The notes beneath the pieces are model-generated. The model was not told the origin of the DNA, ran no database searches, and saw only the letters and a list, made by a program, of their open reading frames with translations. Below, piece after piece: positions 1 through 56,171 of a stretch of 64,000 bases of DNA. The translations under genes were made by a program, and so were the position numbers. The DNA comes from Ostreococcus lucimarinus (lineage: Eukaryota). The stretch is from NCBI GenBank assembly GCA_000092065.1, contig CP000594.1. The stretch is one strand, 5' to 3'. Position 1 is the first letter of the stretch; the number at the start of each line of letters is the position of its first letter.

Positions 1-3000
1 ACGCTGGCGCACGTAGAATACCGGGAGTCTGGCGGGGTGAAAGCGGCGGTAGCGAGAGAACGAGCGGCTCGCTTTGGCAAACGTCGCGTCGTCAGAGCAG
101 TCGTCGGTCTCGCGGGCGGTGGTGCGAAGAACACGGCAAAGGTATTGAAAGGGCTGTCGGCGCCGATTCGTGGTCTTGCTCGAGCAGTTAACAAACGCGA
201 CTCGACAGCATTATTAGTCGAGAGGCAAAAGCGTTTGCGAAAGTCGCAACCGGAAGAAGATGATGATTCAAACTGGCGAGAAAGTCTAGAGAATACGGTG
301 CAATTGAGCCAGCGAATGGTGGCTCTAGAAGAAGAAGCCGTGCACTCTTCGGTTGAGCTATCCGGAGTGGTGAATGTTGAAAAAGTATTAGTTTGCATGG
401 TTGATGACGAGGTTGACAATCCAATCGGTGAGCAGGAGATTTTTAGAATAGGTGTCCATGAAGTCAGTTTGGGAACGCTGCGAGGTTCTGGACGACGAGA
501 ACAACGCGTTTCTATCCGCCGATTGGCGATCGTAAGCCCGGAAGGGACACTACTCGATTCCAGTAAGACCACTGATAATGAAGAGAGAGCGACCTCTCTC
601 GATCGTTCACAAGTTGCGTTATGGGACAAGGCGTCCGAGTGTAACGCGGTGCAATTGCAAATAGTCAAAGGCGATGTCGAGACAGAAGAAGATATCTTCA
701 TAAAGTTTCAGATGAGGCAGTCGATCGTGCACTTATTGCGAGAGCCTTTAGATAGAGTGGCGCGAGTGGCTGTGCGACACAAAGTGACGACGGCATATCT
801 CGAATCTTTCATTTACGACGATGAAGCGAAACAGCGCAATCACACACACTCCATCGAAAAGCAGGCAGATGAGTTCAAAATCAGACCAAGAGTGCGATTA
901 GACGCGCGAGTTCACGGTCCCGTGATTATTTTGGATGGCGACGGCGTAAACTTACGCATAGACCTTGGTACAACGGTAATTGAGTCTATGACGCCAGTTT
1001 CAGCTGGCATCGAGAGCTCACTAGCAAAAGAACACAATGTTTTCTCATTTCAATGCACAGGATTCCAAGTCGGATTTATCGACGATGAATGGGATACGAA
1101 TTCGAACCGACCTGTGGAAGATGAACAGATAATACTTCCGCTGTTGAGTGCACCGTCGTCAAACACCGTCGTGATTCAAAATTTGAATGCCGCATCCGAT
1201 GCGCCGAATCTCAAGGTGCACTCAAAGTTCAGCGCCATTGATATTTCGGTTTCTCCTGTGCGAGTGTTTAAGATCCGTTCTTTGGTCAAGGCATTGAAGC
1301 CAACAACGTCCATAAGTGAGGAACACGTCGCCGCGGTTGTCACCGAAAACGAGGTCCGAGTGCTGCTGCTGCAATTGGATGAAAGCGGCGAAGTGTGTTG
1401 GATACCGGCGACGATATCGTTGCAAAACAATAGTTCTATGGATATTAGAACGATTAATGGGCTCAAAAGTCGAACAATTCACATCAACCTCATGGAAAGC
1501 AACGGGGCGAGCAAATTGCGAAGTGACATTTGCGCGAAACTCTCCTTGCACAAGGACGTACTCACTATCGGTGAAACTGTGCATTCTTTGGACGAGTTAA
1601 TGATTTCAGCTATGTCGGATGATAGTCTCAGCGTGATGTTTGATATTGACGATGATGATGCGAGATCTCGCGACACGGTCCTGTTCGATGCATGGTACGC
1701 ACGGATTAACGGCGTCGCTCGCGAAAATATCACTAGGCTGACAAATGCTGCAAAGAACGGCAAGCTGTCGAAGACTCAAGTGATTTTAAGTGTCGGCGCC
1801 GAAAAGCTGTCTGTTCATGTTTTTGCACCTCTCAAAGCACATCCATCCGAAGATGATTCCGCTGTGATAAATGACGAATCAGATTCTGAACGAGCGCTCG
1901 CAAGCCTTTGTTTCGACGAGCTCAACTACGACTCGTCGTTGGCTCGTACCGTGAAAGTCCATCATATAAAAGCAAACTCACTCGTTTTGTACGACAGATA
2001 TGCAAGTGAAGGTCTTGGACGCGAGTGCATCGCCGGAATTGGAGGACAGGGCTCCGGTCAACCCCTACTTACAGTCACGGTCGCCGTTCGCCATCAGAGC
2101 GATCCCCAATATTGCGGATTGGACAAGCTGATCGAAGTCGACATTCACAAAGAGTTAGTGATGAATATTCGTCGGCCCACGCTCCTTGCATTGATCTCGT
2201 TGAGATTCAGACTGCGTCCACCCGGTTTCAAGATTATTAAGATCATGCCTGATGTATCGTCGCGCATCATGATTTCTGGCAAGCTCGTAAAACGGATCAA
2301 ACGCGAGATACGCGTGAACGTTGCGGCAGTGACTGCGAATGGCTTTTATGATCACGACAAAGAGATGGATGTTCCTGTGCTAGTGTTGCGTGCCGAAGAT
2401 TCGTATTGGAGCACCATTATCAGTCCTCCAACACGTGAAACAAGCGTAAGCGTTGGCACCATAAAACTTGCGACGGGACAGATGCAAGCTCGGGGCGCTT
2501 GGAATCTACAACCTTCACCCGAGTCGAGCTCAAACATCATACTTTTACGTAATGACGTGTACGACAGAGGAGAAGAATTAGACGGGGCCGATGTGTCGTG
2601 GGAGATCGAGCTCGGAAATTTGGACATAGTTATGACTCCTGAGATGAAGGAAATTGGATCGTGGTTCGCATTCTTTCGTCAAATAAGACCTGATCATATT
2701 GAAAAGTACGTCCACCCATGTGCACGACCTCGAGCTGGATTTCAAGTGCTCAAATCCCGTCTCTTGATCAAGATGGACGATCAAAGGATCACCTTGCCCG
2801 TCGCCCTCAGCGAGGGCGAGTCAAATCACGACGTCGTCATCAACTCAGGATGTGTAGAAATCACCAGATCATTTTCTTCGAAAGCAATCAATGAAGCGCA
2901 TTCAATATTTTGGCAAACAACGGCATTGAGCGTGTCAGAGTTTGAAGTAAGTGTCATCTCATTTGCGGAGAAGCGGAGAGAAAGCGTTTCTAAAATTACG

Positions 3001-6000
3001 CAGAAGCCGTTTGGTGTGAAATTGTCTTTGCGGAAGAGAATTGACAGTGGCCCCGCAATCGTGAATGAACTCGATGATAAGAACAAAATCAGAGTGCAGC
3101 CTATTTTCCTCGACTTATCCGGTAGCGAATTTCGATGTATCCACGATTCCATCAAGAACATTCAGTTGAGTAAAGTTCGGCCGAACGTCAAAGTGGAAAA
3201 TCCTATCAGATGGGGTAGCGTCGGACCGCTCCCTGTTTCAGACGTGCTCGCGCCGGCATCGTTGAAGTCGATGGAATTGAGCGTTATTCTGAGCAGCGCA
3301 AAACTCCGCGTCTTCCGGCTACCGATGCAAAGTCGTCCCCTCTCAACGATAAAGGTAGTTGGCGTCGACGTGTTTGTCGTAAAAAACTTGAATCGCAAGT
3401 CTGGAATCAATCTCGACGCTACCGTGGATATGATTGGCGTCGACGATAATTCTCGACAATCCCAGAACCTTAAAGTCAAGCACGTTCTCTATGCGGGTTC
3501 TCCGAAATTACCATTGCTTCATTTGACGCTCGGTGTGAATGATGACAGCACGCGCCTGCGAATTTCGCTACAGCATGTAGAAGTATTGCTGCGTGTGGGA
3601 ATCATTTTGGATACCATACGGACTTTCGCACCTCGAAAATTTGGAGGGGTCTTTTTAGCCAGTACGATTCTTCCTCAAGACATTAAGTGCGTGCACGGCA
3701 GTGACTTCCATCTCGATAAGGATGTCACTCTGACGAAAAGTACGAGACTGCTGGCCGACGATCCCAAAATTGTTGCTGGCAAATATGTGCTGCGCGGAGG
3801 TGGACATACCATAAAATTCGCCGATGGCAAAGGAGCGATCATTCGTCATTATTCCCATGGCTCTCGACGCAAGACGATGCCACGCATTATTATCGGTCAT
3901 GGCGCAACGCTGAAGATTGAAAACGTCACCTTCAATTGTACACGCTCAACATTGTCAAGGTTTATCAAAATGATGCCCGGCGGTAGTTACTCCCTCGGTA
4001 AGAGTGTTTCCTTTGACGAGACCGAAGAAGAGTTGATACCGGTTCACGATGGTCTTGTTGAAAGCACACCAGTTATTGATGCCGCAACAAAGCGTGCAGA
4101 AGAAGGACCAGGGCGAAGAATGAAGGAAATTAAAAAGAAACCGCTGTTGGTCGAGGTGGATGTGTCATGCGTACATATAGTCATCGGTGAAGAATTGAGA
4201 GCTGATCAGATCAACTTGATGTTTGGAGTCGATGTGGCAATAATTCGGGACGAAGAATTGAACACGACGGGAACTTATCAGCTACTTCGTCTTCGTACGA
4301 AGGACACTATGAAACCACCGCTTCTGGAACCAGCAAGCGTGACAATGCACGTTGTATCGCGTGATGGCGGCACCACAACTTGCACGGGGTGTGTGACACC
4401 TATCAAGATGCAGTTGAGTCCCAACAGGATTTGTATCTTGAAGAATTTCACGGAACGTATTGAGCGATCATTTGCAATTGCGCCCATCTTGCAAACCGGC
4501 GTGTATTCGTGTGTCTGGGCAGGACATGCAACCACTTTAACAAAAAAAGTAACTGAGGCGGGTGTGCTCCGACAAAATCAAGCCGGTAGCAATACTTCCT
4601 ACTCTATCTGGAGACCCGTTGCTCCACCTGGTTACGCCATACTATCTGATGTCGTGAAGTCTGAAGGAGGAGCTCCTGAAACGCAAGTTTTGATCGTTCG
4701 GGATGCGCCCGCTCTGTGCACGTTGCCAGAGAGATTTGAGAAAGTCAAAGGCACCGCAAATCCTTGCCTGTGGCGCCCGATCGCACCGACGGGTTTCGTG
4801 AGCTTAGGCGATATTGCGTCAGTATCGGATGCGGATGAACCGTCGCTGGACGTCGTCCGGTGTATTCGAGAAGAGCTCGTGACGAACATCGGTCAAGCGT
4901 CTACACTCGCAAACTTTCGCTTGTACGGAGATTTCAGTCAATCGAATACAACGTTGTGGCAAATGAATAACAGAGTCCGCGGATTCGTGGTGGTCTCGAA
5001 GTCGAATATTCGGCCTTACGCGTACGACATTCGCTCCCCTCCTGGATTTCAACGCAAAGTTTCGACGGGAACCAAGGAGAAGATAAAGCTGCAGGAAAAG
5101 GAGTGCGAGTGTGCCACCGCGGTGAATTTCAAAAAGATTGGCATGGCACAAAACGCGAAGTCAACTGTTGGGTTTTGGGAAGTCATTCCGCCTACGGGTT
5201 ATGTATCCACCGGACACTGCATGAGTGTGGGCAAACTTCCGCCTTTAAGCAGTAGAGTGTTCGCGGACGATAAACGTACTTTTCGACAACCAGAGTCATA
5301 TGAAAAAGTTGCTTCAGCGCGTACGTACGGCACCACACAGCGTTTGACAATTTGGAAACCAGTGCCATGCGCCGGGTTTGTGAGCGTCGGGTTTGTTGTC
5401 ACCACTGAAGATAACGAGCCTTCTGTGAATGACTCGATCGTCTGCGTCCGAGCAGAATTGGTATCTTACATGCATCAAAGGAACTGGACTACAGACAACT
5501 CTGTTTGGACAGTTGACGAAAATGCTACAGACACCACGCACTTCTGGATCACAAATGATCACACGAAAAATTTCGTTATGAGTGTTTTGACGACTGGCAT
5601 GACGCCCGATTTCGGCTTTGATATCGGCTTCCTAGAAAGCTCTTCGTTAAGGGGGCAAGTACAAATGCCAAATTTCATTATGAAATTCGACGTGCCTCTT
5701 GTGAGCGTCGGACTCTCATTTGAAAGATTGTTTCGCAACCAGATGCTCTTCTTGCTTCGATTGGAAAAAACGAAGTTGAGTTGTACGAAAACGTCGAAAT
5801 TGAATCTGTCGTTAGATTCTTCGCTGTCTCTCCTGCATAGAAATACGCGACTGGGATACAGTCTAGAACCCATTGTGGCGCCGTGGAAGTTTTCGGTTCT
5901 GTTGGATGACTCAAAAAATGATGTTTCGGGCGTGAATCCCGCGGGGTTGGACATGTTCATTGAAAGTAAAAAGAAGATTGAGATAATCGTCAATCAAGCC

Positions 6001-9000
6001 TCCATAGTTGACGCAGTGGATGCCGTGATGCAGTTTAAGAAACCACGCGACAAAAACTCAAAAATTGCACATTTGTTGGCTTACGAAGCCGTGCAAAACA
6101 ACGTCATTGTGAATTCCACGGGACGCGACTTATGGGTTCGCGAACTGAATGGCAATATACAAGAAGTACCGCCTGGAAATAGCATTTCGCATTTGGTACA
6201 TGCCGCTGAAACCGAAGCAAATTCTGGATTCGAGAGTGCATCAAATGAGCAGACGATGCGCGGTATGACTGACGTCGTTGATGACATGAATCATCACGGT
6301 GACGAACAGCTCATTATCGCATACCTGATGATGGATATCGTGGCAATTGACTCGTTGGATGACTGGCTTTACCCCCGCATAACTTTCAAGATTTGGGATG
6401 AGGCTTTGCAGGGTCATCGTACCGATCCATTACCCATCGGCGTTACGCGCGGCTCAGCAAAGTTACCGATCCCTCATCCTTTTTTCCATCGCGATAGTGA
6501 TAGCGAGTTCATCAACAATGACGATATCACCATTATCGTCGAAATTTCTCATATTGGGCCAAATGGCGAAACATTGAGCTTCAGTGGTGACTTTGAAGCT
6601 CCAATCGAACAACAACGCGGTGGATGGATTGGCGGTAAAACTGGAAGCTGGATAGACTGTGCTGCAGGCAATGGTGACTCCGTGAGAATTAAGCTGCGCG
6701 CTCGAGTGGTGGAAGGTTTGAATGCGACGCCAGTCACAGAAACGGTAGAGTTGTATCAACTCTTAAAGAGTCCGCAGAAAACGATTATCAAGAGTAAATT
6801 ACAAGTTGAATCACCACCTCTCATCGTGTGTCGTACGAATGACATGGTGAAGCAATGGTGGACAAGAGATCATCAGCAAAGTAAAAGTGCCCTAAGTGCT
6901 TGGAAGCCGCACGTCCCATCGACGTATGAACTCGAGACGAGATATAAGTTTTGTTCGAGTAGAGCTGAAAACGAGTATAAACTCGTACCTTTTGGGACCA
7001 TCCTCTTGCCCGGCCTCATCGCGCCTCGCAGTGCGCTCATGGCAGTTGTCTTAGAACATAATTCAGATCAGCGGGCACCGACTGCTTTTCCCTCGGGGTT
7101 CGAAAATATTTGGACGAGCGATAAAAATGATGTCTCATTTTGGAAGCCCATTGCACCAGACGGTTACGTTGCAGTTGGTAACGTGGTTGCGGCGAGCGCC
7201 GAAATGCCTTCCACCGATTGCGTCGTTTGTGTTCGCGAGGATTTGACAAAACTTGCAGAAGTGCCTCCGGATGTTGCATGGAAATCGAACAGACGATTTC
7301 GCAATAATGATGAAAGAGAATTGGCGCTTATTCAAAACGGCCAACTGAGTACTGGTGGATGGTCGTTCTTGAAGGAGAAAATCAAGCGCACGAGTCCAGG
7401 CGTGATTTCGAACGTCATTCCATCTATGCATAGACTTAATGACAGGATGTGCATTCATTCTTTGGATGACGAAGGTATTCGCGAGTTTTGGATCGATAAC
7501 CGCACTCATATAGATCATATAAAGCAAGAATTACAAGCTGGAGAGTCAATTCTCGCCATTTCGTTTTCTCCTTCCGGGCCGTTTGAGCAAGTGCGTCTTA
7601 ATCTAGGCGCTTCACACGTTGTTCGTCACAAGACTCACGATTTAGTCTTTGACAGTCAAAAGGGGCATCTTTTGAGCTATGTTTCGTGCGAAAACGAAAC
7701 AGATTCTGATATATTCGTTGATGTTCATCCAGCTATGAAGAGAGAACTCACGACTTCTAATTTGGACATATCTCTGAGTGAGAAGTATGAGTCGCCGAGC
7801 GATGTCGCGGATATAGAAGTATTTGAATCGGAACGATATTACCCGTTGAGAGGATGGCGTGCTCCAAAAGACGCTATCGTAAAAGCTCGTTATAGCAGGC
7901 ATAAAAGTGGACGAGGTTCGCAAAAACGGTTTCCAGACGTCAAAGCTCCAAAAGGTTTCAGATTTGAAGGACCGTGGGAGCTCGACAAACCACCAAATCT
8001 GGTGAATGACGACGGTTGGGCGTACGGTGCTATTTGGCTAAGGAAGTGGCCACCGCCTCGTGGATCAGACAAAAGTAAAGGTCGTGCAACCCGTCGCCGA
8101 CGATGGTTTCGTCGTGTCGTTCGATTGAAATCAGCTGAAGAAATTGAATCGCGCGTTTCCCTTCATAACATGAAGCGAGATTTCATCGAAGATTGGCACG
8201 GCACGTTGGCGGTACACGGACGTCTTACGCTACCTTCTTGTTCACGAACCGAGTCCTACATGTTGGCGTTACGCACGGGGGCTGACGTCGCATCAATTAC
8301 CGCTCCGTCGTTTACCGAGAGAGATGACGCGCTGGATATTCGTGACGTGTTATCAGAGCAAGGCAACTGTGCGCTTGCTTACAACAACCTGCACGATCAC
8401 TTTCTTTTGGTCAAAGAAGAATTGTCGAATGATGTGCAAAGTAGCGCGATAGGTGCTATTCCAGGCGTCAAGATTCGTGTCGTTGCCCCTGTTCACGTTG
8501 TCTCATTGATGGATTGTCCGTCGCAAGTTGTTTTGTACGCCAATGGCGAAGAAAGAATTGCCATGCATCTTGCCGCGAACGAAACGAAACGTATCACGGC
8601 GATCGATGCAAACTGTGATACAATAGAGGTGCTCGTGTCTTTGTTCGAAGATTATCTCAGCCTTAGTAACGACAGGCCGCTGCGTCTAGATGTCACCCCG
8701 GCTGGAAGTCCACCGGCGCCACAGGTAAACTGGTTGAACATCAAAGGCTATCCGTATGTGGTTTCTATGCTGTTGATGGAGACGTGTAGAACTAGAATGG
8801 CGGGTGATAAATTCAACGATGATCCTTCGCAGCATCTCTTGAGTCTGACGTATCGCAATGTGCTGATGGTTACAAATGCATCACCGATCGACATTAAGTG
8901 TTTGGCGTGGGTCGCTGGCACAAGTACGACAAACGCGCACATAGATGCATACGTTGGGGTACCCAAAGGCGAGTCGCAACCTGCCATGTTTCTGAAATCG

Positions 9001-11901
9001 AGTGCGAAAACCCTCGCCAAAGTTTCGAGCAAAGAATTTGTGCTCGGTTTTTGTATCGATTCGTCTCCAGTACTAGTGAAAATTTCACCAAGTTCTGAGC
9101 CCGTGATGTTTACGCTTATGACAGCAAGTGGGGACGAACTTGCCTTTCAATGTTCCGTAGTATTATGGGAGGGTCAAAACACCAACGCCGCGACATGGCC
9201 AACGCTTGAAGTTGTTTTACAACCCGTGCTCGTGGCGATCAACTTGACTCGAATTCCTCTCGCGATTCGCTCAAACACTATGGAACACAAGATACTCGAG
9301 CCAGGTTCATATCCCACGCCGTTTTCTTTGGATATTAAGTCTTCGAAAAGCGTAGACGAAGTTGAAGCCGTGCTTAATCAAGCCGCGATTCAAATAGCGG
9401 ATATGTCGTGTCATTCGGAAGGAAAAGATATACTTTGGAGTTCGCCGCTGCAGAATTTGGTGCGCTATTCTGGAGCGATGTGGAGCATCCCACAAGGTGC
9501 CTCCCCCTTGGCGGATGAAATTAATGCATTTAGAAGACTTGGAGGTATCGACGAGTCTGGCGAAAACGTAAATTTCAAGGCACCTATCATCGTTCAGTTT
9601 CTTGTCGAGCGCGGTGAGCACGGTTGCTTCAGGGTCTTTTTTAGGGGGGGCGACGGAGCATCTCTGCAGAAGGCGCCAATCATGATCAAAAACCATTTGC
9701 ACGAACCTTTACTCATTCGACAAGTGAAAGCGAACGACTTTGAGGACGTAGAAAAGAAGTCGGTGCAAAAGTCCACCGTGCGACTACTGCAAGGTATTAA
9801 GAAAGCCTCACACGGCGTAGGACAGTCTTTTGCAATTCGCCCGTTCTCAGCGATATCTTGGGCGTGGAGCGTCCCAGGTATTCCTATGAGATTGGACAAC
9901 TTGAAAAAACAGGAGCTCGAGGCAAACGCCGCGGAGCTCGCATTTCGAAAGCGGAAATTTTTGGAGATATCGAACAATACAGGGGATCACGTCATCATAG
10001 AGATAAACGCGTTCAGCTCGCGATTCAAGGGTTTCATGCACCTCGGCGACATGCAATTTGGAGAACTAGGCAAGCGCACGTTACAGGCAACGATTATTGG
10101 TGAATGGCGTGACGCATCGTTCGTGATCTTCGTGGTTGATAAAACGATAACGTTTGACAACTTTTCTTTCACGACTGAAATGACGAATCAAGCGAAAGCA
10201 TTGACGTTGTACGCGCGGCAGCAAGAAACGCACATCTCTGTCAATTTGGCTGGCTTCTCCGTAACAATCATCGATCGCCTCCGCGACTCATTCGTCGAGT
10301 TATTCCATCTCACGATCGACGACGTGATGATCAGGCACGGAATCAACTTAATCAACAGCAGTTCTGTCTATAGTTATCTCAGAATTGGTGCACTGCAGAT
10401 AGATTTTAGCACGCATGACGCAAGCTATCCAGTCTTCGTTTGGCACGACCCGGCGGACGGGCACTTGCTTGAAGCGTACGCTACTTTGAGTATGAATTCT
10501 CATATCGGTGGTGACTCGATCGATGTTTATCACGTCCAACTAACGACAACGAAGAAAGGCCTCGTGATTCGCGCCGGTGAAGATCTCGTCTGGACAATCT
10601 TGAACTTTTGCAGACTCCTCCAAACGCAACTTCCACAACGCAACGCTTCAGCAGGTTCCGCCATCGCGCCACGCGAAACGTTTGTTGGAAAGCAAACCTC
10701 ACAAGATAGTTTGCTGAATATCGCCACTTTATACGTGGAACCGACATCTTTTGTTGTCACGTTTGCTCCAAATTCCGATATCCGACCTGCAGACGCCGAC
10801 GCTCGGATGATCGCCGCGTTGACGTTTGCAAGTTTACAGCGCCTGCATTTGGTGCTCAACAAATTTGATAAATTCGATGAGAGCATACTTCGTTCGAATT
10901 TGATTCGCGAATTCCGAAACTATTTCAAGTCACAAATGATAGCGCAAACGCTCAGTGTCATGACATCGATGCACACGCTGACAAACGTTTCCACGGGTCT
11001 AGATGCAGTGAGCAAGGCGGTCGAAACCGGCTTCGGCGTACTCGCGCCTTCTCGTACGGCGCCTTTGGCTCGTTTGCCATCTTCTGTCGTCGGCCGAGGA
11101 AGCAGAAGCGACGGTCAGGGCAACTTTGCGAAAAGTGTATTCGTTGGTCTGAAACGACTGGGGGGTGGTATTTCTAAGGGAATTATCGGCCTTTTCGTCA
11201 GCCCTGTAAAAGGTTGCATGGAAGGCGGCGTCGTGGGCGGGTGTAAAGGATGCGCTCGAGGCGTCGCCGACTTGGTAGCTAAACCGACCGCTGGCGCGTT
11301 AGCTCTCGCCTCAAAGACGGTCGAAGGCGTAGCCAATGCCGCTAAAGGCGTACAGACTGCCGCGTGGGACATCATCACCACGAATAATGTCTCAAAAGCG
11401 TGCATTAAACGCCTCCCCATCGCCGTGCGATCGGATGGCATCATTCGAAGATGGGATGCGCACGACGCGTTGGGTGTTTATTGCATGCGCACATGCGTCG
11501 TGTCCAGTCGAACACTGGGCATTTCTTACTGTCCGGGCGTGAAAGACTCATTCTCCTCGATGCATGACATTTTCGGTGAATATTTGTTGCTTGTCACCGA
11601 CAAGCGCGCGTTGTGCGTTCGGACGCCGGAGATGGACGGGGCCATGCCGGCGCGCGCGCCGACTTGCGCGTGGTACATCTCTTGGAGTGATGTGAGCTCG
11701 ATATGGATCGAAAACTCTGTGATCATAAAGTTGCAGATGAACGTCACGAGTGAGGGCGACACTTCCAACCTGGGTGCGCAGAAGCGTGAAACCGAATCTT
11801 GTTTTTCGATTCGCGCTAGAGCCCAAGACGAGGCGGCGAACATCGAAGCCGCGATGCGTCAAAGCTGGAACGCCTACCTGGATACAACAGAAGAAGAATA
11901 G
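1..11901 (+). CDS. VPS13-like bridge-like lipid transfer protein, C-terminal >3954 aa. The N-terminus lies upstream of the window. Single exon.
   Basis: Reading frame is open from nt 1 with no stop before the listed GTG at 37. The C-terminal glycine-rich G-x-x-G...KP-x-x-G-x-x-D/A-x-AS-x-T-x-EG-x-x-N stretch (translated ~11150-11350) matches the VPS13/ATG_C signature. Size fits VPS13. Five repeats of W-x-P-x-x-P-x-G-[YF]-x-x-x-G-[DH]...C-[IV]-R-x-[ED]-L (Vps62/DUF946-like) at ~4596-4720, 4765-4885, 5170-5265, 5345-5465, 7140-7255. Confidence 0.7.
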   Translation, partial: TLAHVEYRESGGVKAAVARERAARFGKRRVVRAVVGLAGGGAKNTAKVLKGLSAPIRGLARAVNKRDSTALLVERQKRLRKSQPEEDDDSNWRESLENTVQLSQRMVALEEEAVHSSVELSGVVNVEKVLVCMVDDEVDNPIGEQEIFRIGVHEVSLGTLRGSGRREQRVSIRRLAIVSPEGTLLDSSKTTDNEERATSLDRSQVALWDKASECNAVQLQIVKGDVETEEDIFIKFQMRQSIVHLLREPLDRVARVAVRHKVTTAYLESFIYDDEAKQRNHTHSIEKQADEFKIRPRVRLDARVHGPVIILDGDGVNLRIDLGTTVIESMTPVSAGIESSLAKEHNVFSFQCTGFQVGFIDDEWDTNSNRPVEDEQIILPLLSAPSSNTVVIQNLNAASDAPNLKVHSKFSAIDISVSPVRVFKIRSLVKALKPTTSISEEHVAAVVTENEVRVLLLQLDESGEVCWIPATISLQNNSSMDIRTINGLKSRTIHINLMESNGASKLRSDICAKLSLHKDVLTIGETVHSLDELMISAMSDDSLSVMFDIDDDDARSRDTVLFDAWYARINGVARENITRLTNAAKNGKLSKTQVILSVGAEKLSVHVFAPLKAHPSEDDSAVINDESDSERALASLCFDELNYDSSLARTVKVHHIKANSLVLYDRYASEGLGRECIAGIGGQGSGQPLLTVTVAVRHQSDPQYCGLDKLIEVDIHKELVMNIRRPTLLALISLRFRLRPPGFKIIKIMPDVSSRIMISGKLVKRIKREIRVNVAAVTANGFYDHDKEMDVPVLVLRAEDSYWSTIISPPTRETSVSVGTIKLATGQMQARGAWNLQPSPESSSNIILLRNDVYDRGEELDGADVSWEIELGNLDIVMTPEMKEIGSWFAFFRQIRPDHIEKYVHPCARPRAGFQVLKSRLLIKMDDQRITLPVALSEGESNHDVVINSGCVEITRSFSSKAINEAHSIFWQTTALSVSEFEVSVISFAEKRRESVSKITQKPFGVKLSLRKRIDSGPAIVNELDDKNKIRVQPIFLDLSGSEFRCIHDSIKNIQLSKVRPNVKVENPIRWGSVGPLPVSDVLAPASLKSMELSVILSSAKLRVFRLPMQSRPLSTIKVVGVDVFVVKNLNRKSGINLDATVDMIGVDDNSRQSQNLKVKHVLYAGSPKLPLLHLTLGVNDDSTRLRISLQHVEVLLRVGIILDTIRTFAPRKFGGVFLASTILPQDIKCVHGSDFHLDKDVTLTKSTRLLADDPKIVAGKYVLRGGGHTIKFADGKGAIIRHYSHGSRRKTMPRIIIGHGATLKIENVTFNCTRSTLSRFIKMMPGGSYSLGKSVSFDETEEELIPVHDGLVESTPVIDAATKRAEEGPGRRMKEIKKKPLLVEVDVSCVHIVIGEELRADQINLMFGVDVAIIRDEELNTTGTYQLLRLRTKDTMKPPLLEPASVTMHVVSRDGGTTTCTGCVTPIKMQLSPNRICILKNFTERIERSFAIAPILQTGVYSCVWAGHATTLTKKVTEAGVLRQNQAGSNTSYSIWRPVAPPGYAILSDVVKSEGGAPETQVLIVRDAPALCTLPERFEKVKGTANPCLWRPIAPTGFVSLGDIASVSDADEPSLDVVRCIREELVTNIGQASTLANFRLYGDFSQSNTTLWQMNNRVRGFVVVSKSNIRPYAYDIRSPPGFQRKVSTGTKEKIKLQEKECECATAVNFKKIGMAQNAKSTVGFWEVIPPTGYVSTGHCMSVGKLPPLSSRVFADDKRTFRQPESYEKVASARTYGTTQRLTIWKPVPCAGFVSVGFVVTTEDNEPSVNDSIVCVRAELVSYMHQRNWTTDNSVWTVDENATDTTHFWITNDHTKNFVMSVLTTGMTPDFGFDIGFLESSSLRGQVQMPNFIMKFDVPLVSVGLSFERLFRNQMLFLLRLEKTKLSCTKTSKLNLSLDSSLSLLHRNTRLGYSLEPIVAPWKFSVLLDDSKNDVSGVNPAGLDMFIESKKKIEIIVNQASIVDAVDAVMQFKKPRDKNSKIAHLLAYEAVQNNVIVNSTGRDLWVRELNGNIQEVPPGNSISHLVHAAETEANSGFESASNEQTMRGMTDVVDDMNHHGDEQLIIAYLMMDIVAIDSLDDWLYPRITFKIWDEALQGHRTDPLPIGVTRGSAKLPIPHPFFHRDSDSEFINNDDITIIVEISHIGPNGETLSFSGDFEAPIEQQRGGWIGGKTGSWIDCAAGNGDSVRIKLRARVVEGLNATPVTETVELYQLLKSPQKTIIKSKLQVESPPLIVCRTNDMVKQWWTRDHQQSKSALSAWKPHVPSTYELETRYKFCSSRAENEYKLVPFGTILLPGLIAPRSALMAVVLEHNSDQRAPTAFPSGFENIWTSDKNDVSFWKPIAPDGYVAVGNVVAASAEMPSTDCVVCVREDLTKLAEVPPDVAWKSNRRFRNNDERELALIQNGQLSTGGWSFLKEKIKRTSPGVISNVIPSMHRLNDRMCIHSLDDEGIREFWIDNRTHIDHIKQELQAGESILAISFSPSGPFEQVRLNLGASHVVRHKTHDLVFDSQKGHLLSYVSCENETDSDIFVDVHPAMKRELTTSNLDISLSEKYESPSDVADIEVFESERYYPLRGWRAPKDAIVKARYSRHKSGRGSQKRFPDVKAPKGFRFEGPWELDKPPNLVNDDGWAYGAIWLRKWPPPRGSDKSKGRATRRRRWFRRVVRLKSAEEIESRVSLHNMKRDFIEDWHGTLAVHGRLTLPSCSRTESYMLALRTGADVASITAPSFTERDDALDIRDVLSEQGNCALAYNNLHDHFLLVKEELSNDVQSSAIGAIPGVKIRVVAPVHVVSLMDCPSQVVLYANGEERIAMHLAANETKRITAIDANCDTIEVLVSLFEDYLSLSNDRPLRLDVTPAGSPPAPQVNWLNIKGYPYVVSMLLMETCRTRMAGDKFNDDPSQHLLSLTYRNVLMVTNASPIDIKCLAWVAGTSTTNAHIDAYVGVPKGESQPAMFLKSSAKTLAKVSSKEFVLGFCIDSSPVLVKISPSSEPVMFTLMTASGDELAFQCSVVLWEGQNTNAATWPTLEVVLQPVLVAINLTRIPLAIRSNTMEHKILEPGSYPTPFSLDIKSSKSVDEVEAVLNQAAIQIADMSCHSEGKDILWSSPLQNLVRYSGAMWSIPQGASPLADEINAFRRLGGIDESGENVNFKAPIIVQFLVERGEHGCFRVFFRGGDGASLQKAPIMIKNHLHEPLLIRQVKANDFEDVEKKSVQKSTVRLLQGIKKASHGVGQSFAIRPFSAISWAWSVPGIPMRLDNLKKQELEANAAELAFRKRKFLEISNNTGDHVIIEINAFSSRFKGFMHLGDMQFGELGKRTLQATIIGEWRDASFVIFVVDKTITFDNFSFTTEMTNQAKALTLYARQQETHISVNLAGFSVTIIDRLRDSFVELFHLTIDDVMIRHGINLINSSSVYSYLRIGALQIDFSTHDASYPVFVWHDPADGHLLEAYATLSMNSHIGGDSIDVYHVQLTTTKKGLVIRAGEDLVWTILNFCRLLQTQLPQRNASAGSAIAPRETFVGKQTSQDSLLNIATLYVEPTSFVVTFAPNSDIRPADADARMIAALTFASLQRLHLVLNKFDKFDESILRSNLIREFRNYFKSQMIAQTLSVMTSMHTLTNVSTGLDAVSKAVETGFGVLAPSRTAPLARLPSSVVGRGSRSDGQGNFAKSVFVGLKRLGGGISKGIIGLFVSPVKGCMEGGVVGGCKGCARGVADLVAKPTAGALALASKTVEGVANAAKGVQTAAWDIITTNNVSKACIKRLPIAVRSDGIIRRWDAHDALGVYCMRTCVVSSRTLGISYCPGVKDSFSSMHDIFGEYLLLVTDKRALCVRTPEMDGAMPARAPTCAWYISWSDVSSIWIENSVIIKLQMNVTSEGDTSNLGAQKRETESCFSIRARAQDEAANIEAAMRQSWNAYLDTTEEE

Positions 11902-11951
11902 AATCACAATTAATGATAGTACTAGCAGTAATTCGCAGTGCGCGCGCCGCG

Positions 11952-12653
11952 TCAACGCCCTAACCCAATCTTTTTCAACAGCGATTTTGATTCGCTCGCG
12001 AGCGCCAACCTCTCCGTGAGCTCGTCAATCTCCTCCTCCGTGAGCTCCGTCTTCACCTGATCGCCGTCCGGCGATTTCCCTTGTATCTTACGCACGAGAT
12101 AAATGATGGAATCCCGCTCGTCGTTCGCCTTACGCAGTCGCTCTTGAAGACTTTCCAACAGTTGCGTCTCCCGTTCGTCCGTCGGCGCTCGCGCCTCCCT
12201 CGACCCATCTCCCCGCTCATCCCGCGCCTTCGTCTCGCGCGTCGCCACCATCTCCATCGCATCGTTCGCGCCTCCGCGCCTCGCGCTCCCTCCGTCGTCC
12301 GCGCGCGCCGCCGCGCCTCGCGCGCCGCCGAACCATCCGAATCCGCGTCTCCCCCTCGCCTCCATCGCCGCCGCCCGCGCCGCCTCCCGCGCCGCCTCCC
12401 GCGCCCGTATCCTCGCCTCGATCCGATCCCCGATCGACTGCCCCCCCCGCTCGCCGAACACGTCGATGTACGACGCGTACCACGCCCGCGGCGCCGCGCA
12501 CAGCGTCATCAACCCGAGCGTCATCCACGCGATGCACGCCCTCGCCCGTCGCGTCCCGCGCTCGTGCGTCGCCCGCGCGTGTTGCGGCGTCACCTGCGCG
12601 TGTCTCGTCGGCGCCCGCGCGTCGCGCTCGCGTCGCTCGACGCGCGCGCGCAT
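11952..12653 (-). CDS. Hypothetical protein with an N-terminal hydrophobic segment and a C-terminal coiled-coil. The true start is probably the internal ATG near 12521.
   Basis: ORF whose C-terminal ~100 aa (RETQLLESLQERLRKANDERDSIIYLVRKIQ...EEEIDELTERLALASESKSLLKKIGL) have normal protein-like composition. Upstream part is R/A/G-rich and may be non-coding. No family recognised. Confidence 0.35.
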   Translation of the reverse strand: MRARVERRERDARAPTRHAQVTPQHARATHERGTRRARACIAWMTLGLMTLCAAPRAWYASYIDVFGERGGQSIGDRIEARIRAREAAREAARAAAMEARGRRGFGWFGGARGAAARADDGGSARRGGANDAMEMVATRETKARDERGDGSREARAPTDERETQLLESLQERLRKANDERDSIIYLVRKIQGKSPDGDQVKTELTEEEIDELTERLALASESKSLLKKIGLGR

Positions 12654-20344: not shown

Positions 20345-21545
20345 CTGCGTTCGAAAATAAGAAGCGAAAAAGTGAAAATGTCAGTCTTCGTCCGCTCGCT
20401 CGTTCATCGTCTCAGAGAGTATGGTCACAAAATATCCACATTGGGTATTCGGTAAAGTTTTTGGGTTAAGGTTTTCATCTTCCTTGACGACGGCGCGATT
20501 GAAGTCGAAGAAAAACGAACGTCGAGAACGACGACGACGACGACGGATGTAGCAGGGGTTCTAGAGGCCGTTAGTCATGGACAGACACGAAGCCCGCTTT
20601 ACCCAAGCGTCACTCTACGGGCGTCTTCTGACGCGTCCGCGAATCTTTGAATCGCGGCGCGCACGTTCGAGATAAATCTCGCACCCAACATCGATCGAAA
20701 AGTAAAATGAATCCATTCAGCGGCGTGTCAGTGTTTCGTGAATCTTTTCACCGCGCCGAAACGCTCTAAAGGTGTCCTAAGATATATTGACGAAGTCATC
20801 ACCCACACCGCCGAAACGGCGAGAAAAACCAAACAAACAAACCAACGATCGCGTCAGGAATCAAAAATGATTTCGTTTCAAAGGAAGCCACTGAACACGG
20901 AGTCCTCAATTGAACTATGCCTTGATTCGAGCATCACCCGCGTCGTCGTCCGTCGTCTTCGTCGTCTTCGTCGTCGCTCGACGAGAGAAAAATCCACCCG
21001 CCGCTCGCGCGCGTTTCCAAGCCTCAGCTTAACGAGATTCACAAGTTTGATCGTCACCGAAATCAGATGGTACGGACAAGTGTGTCTCATCATCGGCTTC
21101 GCGCGCGCGACGGGCGGTCGCGCGTTTTCGTTTATCCGGCTAGCGTTCCGGCGTCGCGGGACCGGCCCGCGCGCCTCGCTCACGGTTCGCCGCGTCTCGC
21201 GCGTCGCTCGCGCTCTCGCGCCCGTCCCGAGAGACGCGCGCTCGATCGCGTGCGTCATCGCTCGACGGTGGTTTATCTCGGCGCGACCGAGCGCTGCGCG
21301 CGTCATGAGCGGGACGCGGCAGTGACTCTAGAGTGGATCGGCCTCTCGCGTTCTCGCGCGTCGCGTCGTCGTCGTCGTCGTCGTCGTCCTCGTCGCGTCG
21401 CGTCGCGTCGTCGCGCACCTCGTCGCGCGTCTCTCGCGCGCGCGTCTCGCGTTCGCGCGCGCTCGCGTCGCGCGGTGCGGTCGGGTCCGATTCGCCGCCG
21501 CCGCCGCACACCGCGACGCCGCGTCGACGCGCCGCGACGACGCGC

Positions 21546-30996: not shown

Positions 30997-31980
30997 TCAC
31001 GATCGAGTACCGAAGACAAAATTAGCGCACTTTTTTCTATCATCTGCAGAATGCGAGTTTGGCGCATTTTTTACTGCGTCGCAGTGTTTCTTAGCCGCTT
31101 TGCACTGTTTGGAGCAGACATGCGGACATGCTGCCACCCAGGTTGGGTTGGAACATAGATGGCGCCTGCCTTCCGGCTTGCCGCAGCCCCGCGGAATCGA
31201 TTCACAGGGAGCCATGTTGGGTAGATCAGGCGTTTCCCAGACGGTACCAGAGATACCATCGAAACCTGGGCACGTGTAATCGTCACTCAGAGTACAGCCA
31301 GTCGCCGCCGAGCCTTGACAAGATCTTTTCCAACCACCCAAACGCCTATGGCCCTTTGTACGCTTTTGGCAAGTACCCGTCGACACGTTGTACGCTTGTT
31401 TAGCTTCCTTAGTATCAAACGAGTGACACACGCATGAATCAATCAGTGGCAAAGCGCGGACCTGTACGGCCGGCTCATGCTCGCACGCCCAACACGAGTG
31501 TCCTCCAATACTGATCCCGAACCGCTGGCGCATCTCTGACGCGCAGACTTTCGCGCGTTCCTCCTCGTTGAGCTCCATTCCCGCGCAGGCACAAGCGCAC
31601 TGTGCACGCGACCACTCCACTCCATCTGTCGCACCAACATAACCTCTCATATCATTCTCCAGTTGGGCGTGTTGGTCGTGGCATATTCTCGCACACGCCG
31701 CGAATGTCTTCATAGATTCTGGTAGTCCGTAGTGCACCGCGGCCTGGGACACCGCGTCGTCATCCATGAGTTTCCACCCCGTGACCCCCGAGCTCACTGG
31801 CCGCCGCCGCCGCCCGAGCTCACTTGACGGTGCATCCAAATCACCGCCCGCATCGCCTGGGTCCGTCGCCACCGCCGTGAACGGCGCATCCGCGTCAACG
31901 CCCGCGGCGACGTTCAGCGCCGCGGCCCCCACGAACAGCGCCAACGTCAAAGGTGACACACATTGCCTTCGAAACCCCAT
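30997..31980 (-). CDS. Secreted cysteine-rich hypothetical protein, about 327 aa.
   Basis: ATG at 31980 (MGFRRQCVSPLTLALFVGAAALNVAAGVDA, a signal peptide). About 30 Cys in clustered patterns in the C-terminal half. The listed ORF starts further upstream at a non-ATG codon. Confidence 0.45.
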   Translation of the reverse strand: MGFRRQCVSPLTLALFVGAAALNVAAGVDADAPFTAVATDPGDAGGDLDAPSSELGRRRRPVSSGVTGWKLMDDDAVSQAAVHYGLPESMKTFAACARICHDQHAQLENDMRGYVGATDGVEWSRAQCACACAGMELNEEERAKVCASEMRQRFGISIGGHSCWACEHEPAVQVRALPLIDSCVCHSFDTKEAKQAYNVSTGTCQKRTKGHRRLGGWKRSCQGSAATGCTLSDDYTCPGFDGISGTVWETPDLPNMAPCESIPRGCGKPEGRRHLCSNPTWVAACPHVCSKQCKAAKKHCDAVKNAPNSHSADDRKKCANFVFGTRS

Positions 31981-32270
31981 CCCGCGCGCGCGATCTGCTT
32001 TTTCGTCCACGCGGCGTCCACTCGCGAACGCGCGGATACCGTTCGCTCTCTCAGCGCCCTCCACGTCCGATCGGTTCGGAAGTGACGCGCGCGCGCAGAA
32101 TAGTTTCGCGTCACAACGCAATTATTCATTCCCGTGTTGATTTTATTCTATTCCAGGGGGTATGGGTATAGAGTTTACAGTGCCTTCGTACGAGATATTT
32201 CCCAACACCCTTTAGTACCAAAACCTAATTGCGTATCTTCCCTCACTTTCCGACGTCACGCGCGCACGCG

Positions 32271-49222: not shown

Positions 49223-49282
49223 GGCGCGCGCGCGTGTCGCGCCGCGCGCCGCGACGACGCTCGGAGGGACGCGGGACGCGCG

Positions 49283-56089: not shown

Positions 56090-56171
56090 CGCATTCGGCA
56101 GGATTTGAACCTACGCACGGAGACCGTATTCGATTTCTAGTCGAACCCCTTAACCACTCGGGCACGAATGC
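56090..56171 (-). tRNA. tRNA-Ser(AGA), type II with a long variable arm.
   Basis: Minus-strand GCATTCGTGCCCGAGTGGTTAAGGGGTTCGACTAGAAATCGAATACGGTCTCCGTGCGTAGGTTCAAATCCTGCCGAATGCG. Acceptor stem 7 bp perfect. Anticodon loop CUAGAAA. Close to animal tRNA-Ser-AGA. Confidence 0.9.

What the first reader, a model, noticed from the sequence alone, without database searches (positions are those of the whole stretch)
1..11901. Giant single-exon VPS13-like gene carrying five Vps62/DUF946-like W-x-P-x-x-P-x-G-Y repeats and atypically AT-rich codons
An uninterrupted ORF of more than 11.8 kb ends in the VPS13/ATG_C glycine-rich motif. In its middle it has five copies of a ~40-aa repeat (W[RK]P[IV]APxG[YF]xxxGD ... 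C[IV]Rx[ED]L). That repeat is the hallmark of the plant Vps62/DUF946 family. If the Vps62-repeat assignment is right, this would be a VPS13 paralogue of the plant type. Its composition (roughly half GC) contrasts sharply with the strongly GC3-biased neighbours. That suggests relaxed codon selection in a lowly expressed giant gene, or a distinct evolutionary history.
Basis: partly seen in the sequence, partly recalled or inferred. Interest (0 to 1): 0.6.

Follow-up and report, generated by a model that had tools for sequence, protein, structure and literature searches.

The report
Intronless VPS13M lipid-bridge gene of Ostreococcus
The giant open reading frame is a real, intron-free gene of the marine green alga Ostreococcus lucimarinus for a plant-type (VPS13M) bridge-like lipid-transfer protein. 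This family was already described in 2022-2023, and the gene's low GC content follows from a general 5'-to-3' GC decline in this genome's genes, not from a foreign origin.

Summary
Window 1-11901 (+) is one open frame of 3,966 codons carrying five W-x-P-x-x-P-x-G-[YF] motifs, with GC3 of 0.51 against 0.60-0.86 in most neighbours.

The window is Ostreococcus lucimarinus CCE9901. A 100%-identical metagenome contig shows that the gene starts 468 codons upstream (MVFERLL..., Pfam VPS13_N, E 1e-37). The full protein is therefore 4,434 aa from a single 13.3-kb exon.

Profile and fold searches confirm four points:
- the VAB domain (PDB 7U8T, E 4e-18);
- the ATG_C-like helices and C-terminal PH domain (human VPS13C/A);
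- a sub-threshold DysF match;
- that the 'Vps62' repeats are three beta-tripod domains (PDB 6FBM, E 9e-19; Foldseek E 6e-8).

This is the VPS13M architecture published by Levine (2022) and Leterme et al. (2023). There is one difference. The third beta-tripod sits in VAB repeat 1, after the C2-like insert, and not at the C-terminus. Four related picoalgal orthologues share this placement.

The low GC is positional. GC3 is 0.88 in the first 200 codons and about 0.5 afterwards. Neighbouring genes and orthologues in two other lineages show the same decline.

Verdict: a correctly identified, ordinary member of a known family.

The parts
1..11901 (+). Codons 469-4434 and the stop codon of the VPS13M gene. 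The true start (MVFERLL...) lies 1,404 nt upstream of the window. The full CDS is 13,305 nt and encodes 4,434 aa in a single exon.
   Evidence: The N-terminal 468 aa, read from L011:8597-10000, match Pfam VPS13_N at E 1.4e-37. dN/dS is 0.27 against a related lineage.
1363..1800 (+). Extra N-terminal PH-like domain (window aa 455-600), inserted in the lipid-groove region.
   Evidence: A profile of this region (A5) gives only weak PDB hits, but 12 of the 13 are PH domains, best E 0.016. The position agrees with the published VPS13M architecture.
3613..3975 (+). Putative short right-handed beta-helix insert (window aa 1205-1325), with the conserved motif RLLAD...DGxGH...VGxGKxLxFxNV.
   Evidence: The region is conserved in 15 other VPS13M-like proteins (A6). 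The only family hit is a non-significant Pfam pectate-lyase-like match, E 0.21. The profile finds no PDB hit. The assignment rests on Levine 2022 and Leterme 2023.
4573..5055 (+). Beta-tripod 1 (T1, window aa 1525-1685). Motifs WRPVAPPGY at aa 1537 and WRPIAPTGF at aa 1591. Third leg LWQMNN...F.
   Evidence: Pfam Vps62. AlphaFold2 model of T1-T2 with pLDDT 80.5. Foldseek best hit 6FBM, GNIP1Aa, E 5.6e-8.
5143..5640 (+). Beta-tripod 2 (T2, window aa 1715-1880). Motifs WEVIPPTGY at aa 1726 and WKPVPCAGF at aa 1785. Third leg FWITND...F.
   Evidence: The T1-T2 profile (A3) matches the 6FBM beta-tripod, residues 319-472, at E 8.7e-19.
6073..6252 (+). Start of VAB repeat 1 (window aa 2025-2084), with the conserved Asn 2038 in VIVNSTGRDLWVR.
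   Evidence: N2038 is at least 90% conserved across 24 VPS13M-like proteins. The insert-deleted profile (A7) hits the VAB structure 7U8T at E 0.0022.
6253..6810 (+). C2-like beta-sandwich insert (window aa 2085-2270).
   Evidence: Evidence is indirect. A low-confidence AlphaFold2 model shows 8 strands at pLDDT 50-69. The region is conserved in the Ostreococcus-like orthologues. The position matches the C2 domain of published VPS13M.
6868..7410 (+). Beta-tripod 3 (T3, window aa 2290-2470). Degenerate motif WKPHVPSTY at aa 2301 and canonical WKPIAPDGY at aa 2381. It lies between the C2-like insert and the DysF domain, inside VAB repeat 1.
   Evidence: Pfam Vps62 best stretch is aa 2349-2430. phmmer mapping places it here. 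It is at the same place in P0036-P0039 and absent from this place in 16 other VPS13M-like proteins.
7432..7752 (+). Remainder of VAB repeat 1 and start of repeat 2 (window aa 2478-2584), with conserved Asn 2565 in SCENETD.
   Evidence: N2565 is at least 90% conserved. It aligns to the start of repeat 2 of 7U8T, chain residues 129-164.
7750..8112 (+). Dysferlin/Pex24-type (DysF) domain inserted in VAB repeat 2 (window aa 2584-2704). Sequence landmarks: YYPLRGW...DGWAYG...RRRRW.
   Evidence: Pfam Pex24p scores E 1.6e-5, 24.6 bits, just under the 26.8-bit cut-off. phmmer finds the homologous segment in 17 of the 23 other VPS13M-like proteins mapped, iE 6e-4 to 6e-44. Leterme 2023 reports a DysF domain in VAB module 2.
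8341..9900 (+). VAB repeats 3-6 (about window aa 2781-3300). Repeat-initial Asn residues lie in VTNAS, AINLT (N3081) and IKNHL (N3231).
   Evidence: Profile A4 hits the Chaetomium thermophilum Vps13 VAB crystal structure 7U8T, residues 215-649, at E 4.4e-18.
11068..11385 (+). ATG_C-like glycine-rich amphipathic-helix region (window aa 3690-3795).
   Evidence: phmmer aligns aa 3707-3782 to human VPS13A (E 1.8e-5) and aa 3708-3882 to VPS13C (E 1.7e-7). The Pfam ATG_C model itself gives no hit.
11410..11739 (+). C-terminal PH-like domain (Pfam VPS13_C, window aa 3804-3913). Only 53 residues follow before the stop codon, so there is no C-terminal beta-tripod.
   Evidence: Pfam VPS13_C scores E 3.3e-7 and 3.8e-8, above its cut-off. 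C-terminal sequence.

Best explanation
The ORF is the 3' 89% of the single-exon gene for the VPS13M-type bridge-like lipid-transfer protein of Ostreococcus lucimarinus (4,434 aa).

Shown here: a VPS13 N-terminal (chorein) region, a six-repeat VAB domain, ATG_C-like helices and a C-terminal PH domain frame the protein. Three beta-tripods ('Vps62') and a near-threshold DysF match are inserted as accessory domains. A PH-like, a beta-helix-like and a C2-like insert are assigned mainly by position.

Inferred from the family: the protein forms a long hydrophobic beta-groove spanning a membrane contact site. The N-terminal end docks on the donor membrane, usually the ER. The ATG_C and PH end docks on the acceptor organelle, and glycerolipids slide in bulk along the groove. 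The accessory domains and the VAB domain choose the contact site and partners.

The low GC is not a property of the gene's origin. In this genome GC3 is high near the 5' end of genes and decays with distance towards about 0.5. A 13-kb exon is therefore mostly trough. The most likely cause (inference) is a GC-enriching force concentrated near gene starts and intergenic regions. That force could be GC-biased gene conversion or selection, acting against an AT-biased mutation pressure.
For: Identity of the organism:
- The neighbouring poly(A) polymerase (PAP) and amidohydrolase proteins are exact matches to O. lucimarinus CCE9901 XP_001421431 and XP_001421434.

Gene structure:
- The start was recovered on L011. 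The full gene is 4,434 codons with no internal stop.
- The frame is intact for at least 4,295 codons in a related lineage. dS is 0.138, dN is 0.037 and dN/dS is 0.20-0.37 in every 400-codon window.
- Whole single ORFs of 4,396-5,103 aa occur in four related lineages.
- L013 is syntenic with the window: VPS13M, then cofilin, then RRP12.

VPS13 features:
- VPS13_N, E 1.4e-37.
- VAB against 7U8T, E 4.4e-18.
- ATG_C and PH against human VPS13C/A.
- VPS13_C.

VPS13M features:
- Vps62, E 3.9e-31.
- Beta-tripod against 6FBM by sequence profile, E 8.7e-19, and by fold, Foldseek E 5.6e-8 on a pLDDT-80 model.
- DysF.
- The domain order matches the published VPS13M architecture.
- AtVPS13M1 binds and transports glycerolipids in vitro and sits on mitochondria.

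Composition:
- GC3 is 0.88, then 0.61, then about 0.5 along the gene.
- RRP12 falls from 0.90 to 0.55, and other neighbours also decline.
- Spearman rho is -0.61, p 4.5e-6, with both giant genes excluded.
- The same trough is seen in L013 (0.72 falling to 0.52). L014 has a U-shaped profile, 0.84 to 0.65 to 0.84.
- The mutational equilibrium GC of Mamiellophyceae is 37-46%, well below the observed 48-64% (PMC5455958).
Against: - No expression, localisation or lipid-transfer data exist for this protein, so the mechanism is transferred from yeast, human and Arabidopsis VPS13.
- The repeating beta-groove itself was not modelled here.
- The Pfam SHR-BD/VAB and ATG_C models do not hit the single sequence. 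VAB needed a profile.
- The PH-like, beta-helix-like and C2-like inserts have only weak or positional support.
- The third beta-tripod is not where the published ancestral architecture puts it.
- VPS13M's GC3 falls faster than RRP12's, reaching 0.49 at codons 400-800 against 0.63 for other genes. A gene-specific factor such as low expression probably adds to the positional effect.
- The cause of the gradient (gene conversion versus selection) was not tested.
Confidence: 0.9

Rival explanations
1. The low GC3 is simply relaxed translational selection on GC-ending codons in a weakly expressed giant gene, with no positional effect.
For: VPS13M's GC3 at codons 400-800 (0.49) is lower than that of other genes at the same distance (0.63). 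Selection on codon use is one accepted candidate for the GC excess in Mamiellophyceae.
Against: Expression is a property of the whole transcript. Yet GC3 is 0.88 in codons 1-200 and about 0.5 afterwards. GC1 also falls, from 0.70 to about 0.53. RRP12 and other ordinary genes show the same decline. The Micromonas-like orthologue has a U-shaped profile.
Confidence: 0.2
2. The gene has a distinct evolutionary history, such as horizontal acquisition or an origin in a low-GC outlier chromosome region. That history would explain its AT-richer composition.
For: The whole-gene GC of about 0.48-0.51 contrasts with flanks of 0.6-0.7.
Against: The 5' 600 nt of the gene are as GC-rich as the flanks. The gene is syntenic in another Ostreococcus and shows the same trough there. 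Its architecture is the Viridiplantae-specific VPS13M one. Other long ORFs in the window share the trend.
Confidence: 0.02
3. The protein is a different VPS13 paralogue (S-, B-, Y- or X-type) that acquired beta-tripods independently, rather than a VPS13M orthologue.
For: No tree with named sequences was built here. The third beta-tripod is in a non-canonical place. Class HMMs cannot assign it to the T2 class or the C-terminal class.
Against: T1 and T2 are colinear with, and score best or near-best against, the T1 and T2 classes of other VPS13M-like proteins. The PH-like, beta-helix-like, C2-like and DysF inserts occupy the published VPS13M positions. Leterme 2023 reports that beta-tripods combined with VPS13 domains occur only in VPS13M, and that chlorophytes, including O. 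tauri, have one VPS13M.
Confidence: 0.04
4. The long ORF is a decaying or misassembled locus rather than one functional gene.
For: None found.
Against: Independent metagenome assemblies give 99-100% identical sequence. dN/dS is 0.27 and uniform along the gene. Intact ORFs are present in four further lineages.
Confidence: 0.01

Closest known systems
VPS13M clade of Viridiplantae (Arabidopsis AtVPS13M1 At4g17140 and AtVPS13M2 At1g48090; Levine 2022, PMC7613979; Leterme et al. 2023, PMC10683392)
   Same: Shared order: chorein N-terminus, extra PH, beta-helix, tandem beta-tripods, C2, DysF within VAB repeat 2, VAB, ATG_C and a C-terminal PH. Beta-tripods joined to VPS13 domains are reported only for this clade. 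Chlorophytes have a single VPS13M.
   Different: The published ancestral layout puts the third beta-tripod at the C-terminus, in or after the PH domain. Here, and in four related picoalgal orthologues, the C-terminus has none. The third tripod instead sits in VAB repeat 1, right after the C2-like insert. The gene is one exon, whereas AtVPS13M1 has 63.
Yeast Vps13 and human VPS13A/C (bridge-like lipid-transfer proteins)
   Same: The N-terminal VPS13_N region, the six-repeat VAB domain (7U8T), the ATG_C helices and the C-terminal PH are detectably homologous.
   Different: Only the two ends and the VAB domain are recognisable by sequence. Seven extra inserted domains are present, and none of the beta-tripods or the DysF domain occurs in the opisthokont proteins.
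GNIP1Aa C-terminal beta-tripod domain (PDB 6FBM; Zaitseva et al. 2019) and Pfam 'Vps62'/DUF946 proteins
   Same: T1-T2 match by sequence profile (E 8.7e-19) and by fold (Foldseek E 5.6e-8). They share the W-x-P-x-x-P-x-G-Y leg motif.
   Different: In GNIP1Aa the tripod targets a pore-forming MACPF toxin to a receptor. Here three tripods decorate a lipid-transfer bridge, and their ligands are unknown.
5'->3' GC3 gradients in plant genes, known from grasses and attributed to recombination or GC-biased gene conversion near gene starts (recalled from the literature, not checked here)
   Same: GC3 is highest at the 5' end and declines with distance, so long genes are GC-poorer.
   Different: I found no description of it for Ostreococcus in the held library. 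The evidence here covers one 64-kb window and two related loci only.

Membership tests
VPS13 (bridge-like lipid-transfer protein) | N-terminal chorein / VPS13_N region | tested here: met
   It lies outside the window and was recovered from the 100%-identical contig L011. Pfam VPS13_N scores E 1.4e-37, 129.5 bits, against a cut-off of 80.
VPS13 (bridge-like lipid-transfer protein) | VAB domain: six beta-sandwich repeats, each opening with a conserved Asn | tested here: met
   No Pfam hit for the single sequence. The profile of aa 2781-3420 hits the 7U8T VAB structure, residues 215-649, at E 4.4e-18. The insert-deleted profile of repeats 1-2 hits 7U8T at E 0.0022. Asn 2038, 2565, 3081 and 3231 are conserved.
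VPS13 (bridge-like lipid-transfer protein) | ATG_C-like amphipathic helices followed by a C-terminal PH domain | tested here: met
   phmmer against human VPS13C gives E 1.7e-7 and against VPS13A 1.8e-5. Pfam VPS13_C is above its cut-off. The Pfam ATG_C model gives no hit.
VPS13 (bridge-like lipid-transfer protein) | Continuous repeating beta-groove (about 12 RBG units) with a hydrophobic floor | not tested
Only the first 404 positions of the VPS13_N model, which cover the first RBG units, are matched.
VPS13 (bridge-like lipid-transfer protein) | Lipid binding and transfer, and localisation at membrane contact sites | not testable with these tools
   This requires biochemistry and imaging. It has been shown for AtVPS13M1 only.
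VPS13M clade (Viridiplantae) | Tandem pair of beta-tripod ('Vps62') domains in the middle of the protein | tested here: met
   Pfam Vps62, E 3.9e-31. Profile against 6FBM, E 8.7e-19. AlphaFold2 pLDDT 80.5 and Foldseek 6FBM E 5.6e-8.
VPS13M clade (Viridiplantae) | DysF (dysferlin/Pex24) domain inserted in VAB repeat 2 | tested here: inconclusive
   Pfam Pex24p scores 24.6 bits, E 1.6e-5, just below the 26.8-bit cut-off. The segment is homologous to the same segment in 17 of the 23 other VPS13M-like proteins mapped. It follows the repeat-2 Asn 2565.
VPS13M clade (Viridiplantae) | Additional PH domain in the N-terminal half | tested here: inconclusive
   Profile A5 gives 12 of 13 weak PDB hits to PH domains, best E 0.016. 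Pfam gives no hit.
VPS13M clade (Viridiplantae) | Short beta-helix insert and a C2 domain at the start of the VAB domain | tested here: inconclusive
   Beta-helix: a conserved block (A6) with no PDB hit and a Pfam match at E 0.21. C2: only a low-confidence 8-strand model.
VPS13M clade (Viridiplantae) | Third beta-tripod at the C-terminus (ancestral layout of Leterme 2023, lost in angiosperm VPS13M2) | tested here: not met
   The protein ends 53 residues after the PH domain. The third tripod is at aa 2290-2470 instead. The published clade itself has members without a C-terminal tripod, so this does not exclude membership.
VPS13M clade (Viridiplantae) | Phylogenetic placement with named VPS13M sequences | not tested
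   All homologues retrieved are unnamed metagenome proteins. The paper's supplements are not held.

The most novel reading that the evidence does not exclude
Two modest possibilities remain open.

(1) In Ostreococcus and its picoalgal relatives the third beta-tripod of VPS13M was moved into, or independently gained in, VAB repeat 1 next to the C2 domain. A putative receptor-binding module would then sit on the adaptor-binding domain rather than on the membrane-docking C-terminus. As far as the text available to me shows, this layout is not described in the published VPS13M scheme.

(2) Giant single-exon genes such as this one act as natural rulers. They expose a steep, short-range GC-enriching process anchored at gene starts and ends in Mamiellophyceae, with a decay length of a few hundred codons. 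That process could be GC-biased gene conversion at promoter-proximal recombination sites.
Probability: 0.4. Interest if true: 0.4.

Novelty: new member of a known kind. Interest (0 to 1): 0.27.

Why it matters
The practical value outweighs the conceptual value.

Plant VPS13M genes have about 60 exons and are often mis-annotated (PMC10683392). Ostreococcus carries the whole 4,434-aa protein, with every accessory domain, in one clean exon. The organism is tiny and, to my knowledge, genetically tractable (not checked here). That makes this gene a convenient reference model and an experimental entry point for asking what the beta-tripod, DysF and C2 modules do.

The shifted third beta-tripod shows that accessory-domain placement in VPS13M is more plastic than the published scheme suggests.

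The intragenic GC3 trough, reproduced in three lineages, bears on an open question. Mamiellophyceae genomes are far more GC-rich than their mutational equilibrium, and the cause is unsettled. The trough suggests that the responsible force is local to gene starts and ends.

Tried and rejected
- The word-indexed protein search on the whole protein timed out. On the C-terminal 1,166 aa it returned nothing. On the tripod region it returned only 4 hits. The exhaustive HMMER search was needed to find orthologues.
- phmmer of the DysF segment against PDB gave only spurious arginine-rich Rev hits.
- AlphaFold2 of aa 2021-2800 with a 5-sequence alignment gave pLDDT 39 and is unusable. The placement of T3 and the C2-like insert in VAB repeat 1 therefore rests on conserved Asn landmarks and profile matches, not on a model.
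- The beta-helix profile found nothing in PDB.
- Class-specific HMMs could not decide whether T3 derives from the C-terminal tripod or from T2. Scores were about 80 bits against both.
- Literature searches for an Ostreococcus GC3 gradient or for long-gene GC content found nothing relevant.
- The supplements of Leterme 2023, which would show the O. tauri domain map, are not held.
- Rejected hypotheses: a bacterial origin of the window (the neighbours are eukaryotic RRP12, RRS1, poly(A) polymerase and WDR48); horizontal transfer; and a pseudogene.
- No large repeats, tandem repeats or opposite-strand ORFs of at least 150 aa lie within the gene.
Full report
**Observation.** Frame 1 of the + strand is open from base 1 to the stop codon at 11899-11901. 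That is 3,966 sense codons with no internal stop. No other ORF of at least 150 aa overlaps it on either strand. It contains no tandem or long dispersed repeats. GC is 0.465-0.514 across 1-12000 and 0.58-0.70 in the following 10 kb. GC3 is 0.51, against 0.60-0.86 for most neighbouring ORFs. The motif W-x-P-x-x-P-x-G-[YF] occurs at window aa 1537, 1591, 1726, 1785 and 2381. A sixth, degenerate copy (WKPHVPSTY) lies at aa 2301.

**Organism and full gene.** The neighbours are eukaryotic housekeeping genes: RRP12, RRS1, poly(A) polymerase (PAP), NAD kinase, WDR48, cofilin and photolyase. The PAP and amidohydrolase proteins are exact matches to Ostreococcus lucimarinus CCE9901 XP_001421431 and XP_001421434, on a 708,927-bp record. 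The PAP protein also recurs on hundreds of marine metagenome contigs.

A scan of JGI metagenomes with the first 500 aa returned nine loci at 92-100% identity. In L011 (100% identical) the frame continues 551 codons upstream. The plausible start is MVFERLLADQLN..., 468 codons before window base 1. The same start is seen in L004, L006 and, in the 92%-identical lineage, L010. The full CDS is 13,305 nt and encodes 4,434 aa in one exon.

**Is it a real gene?** Against L010 the frame is intact for at least 4,295 codons. dS is 0.138, dN is 0.037 and the overall dN/dS is 0.27. Every 400-codon window falls between 0.20 and 0.37. An exhaustive HMMER search with window aa 1490-2689 found colinear full-length relatives of 4,396, 4,423 and 4,429 aa (51-43% identity) and a GC-rich relative of 5,103 aa. 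All were called as single ORFs on metagenome contigs. The 4,396-aa protein lies in a syntenic locus with the order VPS13M, cofilin, RRP12. There is no sign of introns, decay or misassembly.

**VPS13 membership.**
- The N-terminal 468 aa match Pfam VPS13_N at E 1.4e-37.
- The C-terminus matches Pfam VPS13_C.
- By phmmer, the glycine-rich ATG_C helices plus the PH domain match human VPS13C (E 1.7e-7) and VPS13A.
- Pfam does not detect the VAB domain in the single sequence. A profile of window aa 2781-3420 with nine homologues hits the Chaetomium thermophilum Vps13 VAB crystal structure (7U8T, residues 215-649) at E 4.4e-18.
- A profile of the segments around Asn 2038 and Asn 2565, with the inserts removed, again finds 7U8T (E 0.0022, at the start of repeat 2) and VPS13A.
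- The beta-groove itself was not modelled.

**The 'Vps62' repeats.** Pfam Vps62 scores E 3.9e-31 in three stretches. The motifs fall into three modules of about 160 aa: T1 (aa 1525-1685), T2 (1715-1880) and T3 (2290-2470). Each module has two W-x-P-x-x-P-x-G-[YF] legs and a divergent third leg of the form W...N...F.

A profile of T1-T2 matches the beta-tripod domain of GNIP1Aa (PDB 6FBM, residues 319-472) at E 8.7e-19. An AlphaFold2 model of T1-T2 has mean pLDDT 80.5. Its only significant Foldseek match in PDB is 6FBM, at E 5.6e-8 and probability 1.00. This agrees with Levine (2022), who states that the 'Vps62 domains' of plant VPS13M1/2 are beta-tripods and that the Vps62 name stems from an alignment error.

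**Other inserts.**
- DysF: Pfam Pex24p scores 24.6 bits, E 1.6e-5, just under its cut-off, at aa 2584-2704. The segment is conserved in 17 of the 23 other VPS13M-like proteins mapped.
- Extra PH (aa 455-600): a profile gives 12 of 13 weak PDB hits to PH domains, best E 0.016.
- Beta-helix (aa 1205-1325): this is a conserved block, but no significant match was found.
- C2 (aa 2085-2270): the only support is an 8-stranded, low-confidence model.

**Comparison with what is known.** Leterme et al. 2023 (PMC10683392) define the VPS13M clade of Viridiplantae. [quoted passage not shown] They state that beta-tripods joined to VPS13 domains are specific to Viridiplantae. They also state that chlorophytes, including O. 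tauri, have one VPS13M. The window protein fits this layout domain for domain.

One difference emerged from mapping the window's domains onto 23 large homologues:
- The window protein and its four closest relatives (P0036-P0039) have no C-terminal tripod. The protein ends 53 residues after the PH domain. Their third tripod lies between the C2-like insert and DysF, that is, between the Asn of VAB repeat 1 and the Asn of repeat 2.
- Eleven more distant VPS13M-like proteins have the canonical C-terminal tripod and nothing at the internal site.
- Five have T1 and T2 only. Two further homologues are incomplete and are not scored here.

Class HMMs cannot say whether T3 derives from the C-terminal tripod or from T2. 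It scores about 80 bits against both classes. I could not check whether the paper's figure or supplement already shows this for O. tauri.

**Composition.** Along the full gene, GC3 is 0.88 in codons 1-200 and 0.61 in codons 201-400. It then stays at 0.38-0.59, and is 0.66 in the last 200-codon bin (codons 4201-4400). GC1 falls from 0.70 to about 0.53.

The same 5'->3' decline appears in ordinary neighbours:
- RRP12: 0.90 to 0.55 over 1,479 codons.
- Amidohydrolase: 0.81 to 0.65.
- NAD kinase: 0.75 to 0.63.
- The 689-aa ORF at 26890-28959: 0.69 to 0.50.
- The second giant ORF (G8/CEMIP, 3,288 aa): 0.66 to about 0.55.

Pooled over 100-codon bins, GC3 correlates negatively with distance from the start codon. 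Spearman rho is -0.61, p 4.5e-6, with both giant genes excluded.

The syntenic orthologue in another Ostreococcus (L013) shows GC3 of 0.72 falling to 0.52, within flanks at 0.60-0.65 GC. The GC-rich, Micromonas-like orthologue (L014) is U-shaped, 0.84 to 0.65 to 0.84, beside neighbours at 0.85-0.88.

A foreign origin is therefore excluded. A purely gene-wide explanation such as low expression is insufficient, although VPS13M does fall faster than other genes at the same distance. Mutation-accumulation data show that the mutational equilibrium GC of Mamiellophyceae (37-46%) is far below the observed GC. The authors name selection or GC-biased gene conversion as candidate causes (PMC5455958). 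My inference is that this GC-raising force is concentrated near gene starts and ends. A 13-kb exon is then mostly beyond its reach.

**Mechanism.**
- Shown: the domain composition and its conservation under purifying selection.
- Inferred from yeast, human and Arabidopsis VPS13: the protein forms a long hydrophobic groove bridging two organelles at a contact site. It moves glycerolipids in bulk from the membrane held by the chorein end to the membrane held by the ATG_C and PH end. The VAB, PH, C2, DysF and beta-tripod modules select membranes and partners.
- Supporting data: AtVPS13M1 transports glycerolipids in vitro, localises to mitochondria and affects phospholipid breakdown under phosphate starvation.
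- Unknown: which organelles are bridged in Ostreococcus.

**Verdict.** This is a correct identification of an ordinary, though very large, member of a family described in 2022-2023, in a genome long since sequenced. First, the gene model is complete and intronless, and its N-terminus lies outside the window. Second, the third beta-tripod is shifted into VAB repeat 1 in the Ostreococcus-like lineage. Third, the 'atypical' codon composition is the asymptote of a general intragenic GC3 gradient.

Noticed in passing
window 32229-42095 (+): A second giant single-exon ORF of 3,288 aa, with two G8 domains and a CEMIP-type beta-helix (Pfam E 7e-45 and 2e-43). Its GC3 is 0.57. Its 3' end overlaps the 3' end of the convergent amidohydrolase ORF (41988-43349) by 108 nt.
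   Followed up: partly
window 41988-43349 (-) and 23068-24864 (-): The PAP protein has two NCBI accessions (XP_001421431 and XP_001421465). The amidohydrolase has a second, partial copy (XP_001421402) on the same 708,927-bp record. This suggests a duplicated segment elsewhere on the chromosome or duplicate gene models. The reference amidohydrolase model is 453 aa, whereas metagenome relatives are 590-598 aa. No large repeat lies within the window itself.
   Followed up: partly
window 21019-21098 (-) and 56090-56171 (-): A C/D-box snoRNA match (Rfam snoR117, 43.4 bits against a gathering score of 42) lies upstream of RRS1. A tRNA-Ser(AGA) lies after the WDR48-like gene.
   Followed up: no
window 26890-28959 (+), 30997-32121 (-), 46280-47842 (-), 48044-50206 (-): Four ORFs of 374-720 aa have no Pfam match. 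ORF 26890-28959 also has low GC3 (0.54) and a 5'->3' decline from 0.69 to 0.50.
   Followed up: no
P0033-P0035 (hits): These are stand-alone proteins of about 520-540 aa with several beta-tripod motifs and an N-terminal hydrophobic segment. Their Lys/Asn/Ile-rich composition suggests very AT-rich organisms. The source is unknown, possibly giant viruses or AT-rich protists.
   Followed up: no
P0042 and P0043 (hits): These are variant VPS13M-like layouts in unnamed metagenome proteins. P0042 (2,511 aa, probably truncated) has three tandem beta-tripods. P0043 (5,421 aa) has two DysF segments.
   Followed up: no
L014 760-16071: The GC-rich, Micromonas-like orthologue (5,103 aa) shows a U-shaped GC3 profile, 0.84 to 0.65 to 0.84. 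This suggests that both gene ends, and not only the 5' end, are GC-enriched.
   Followed up: partly
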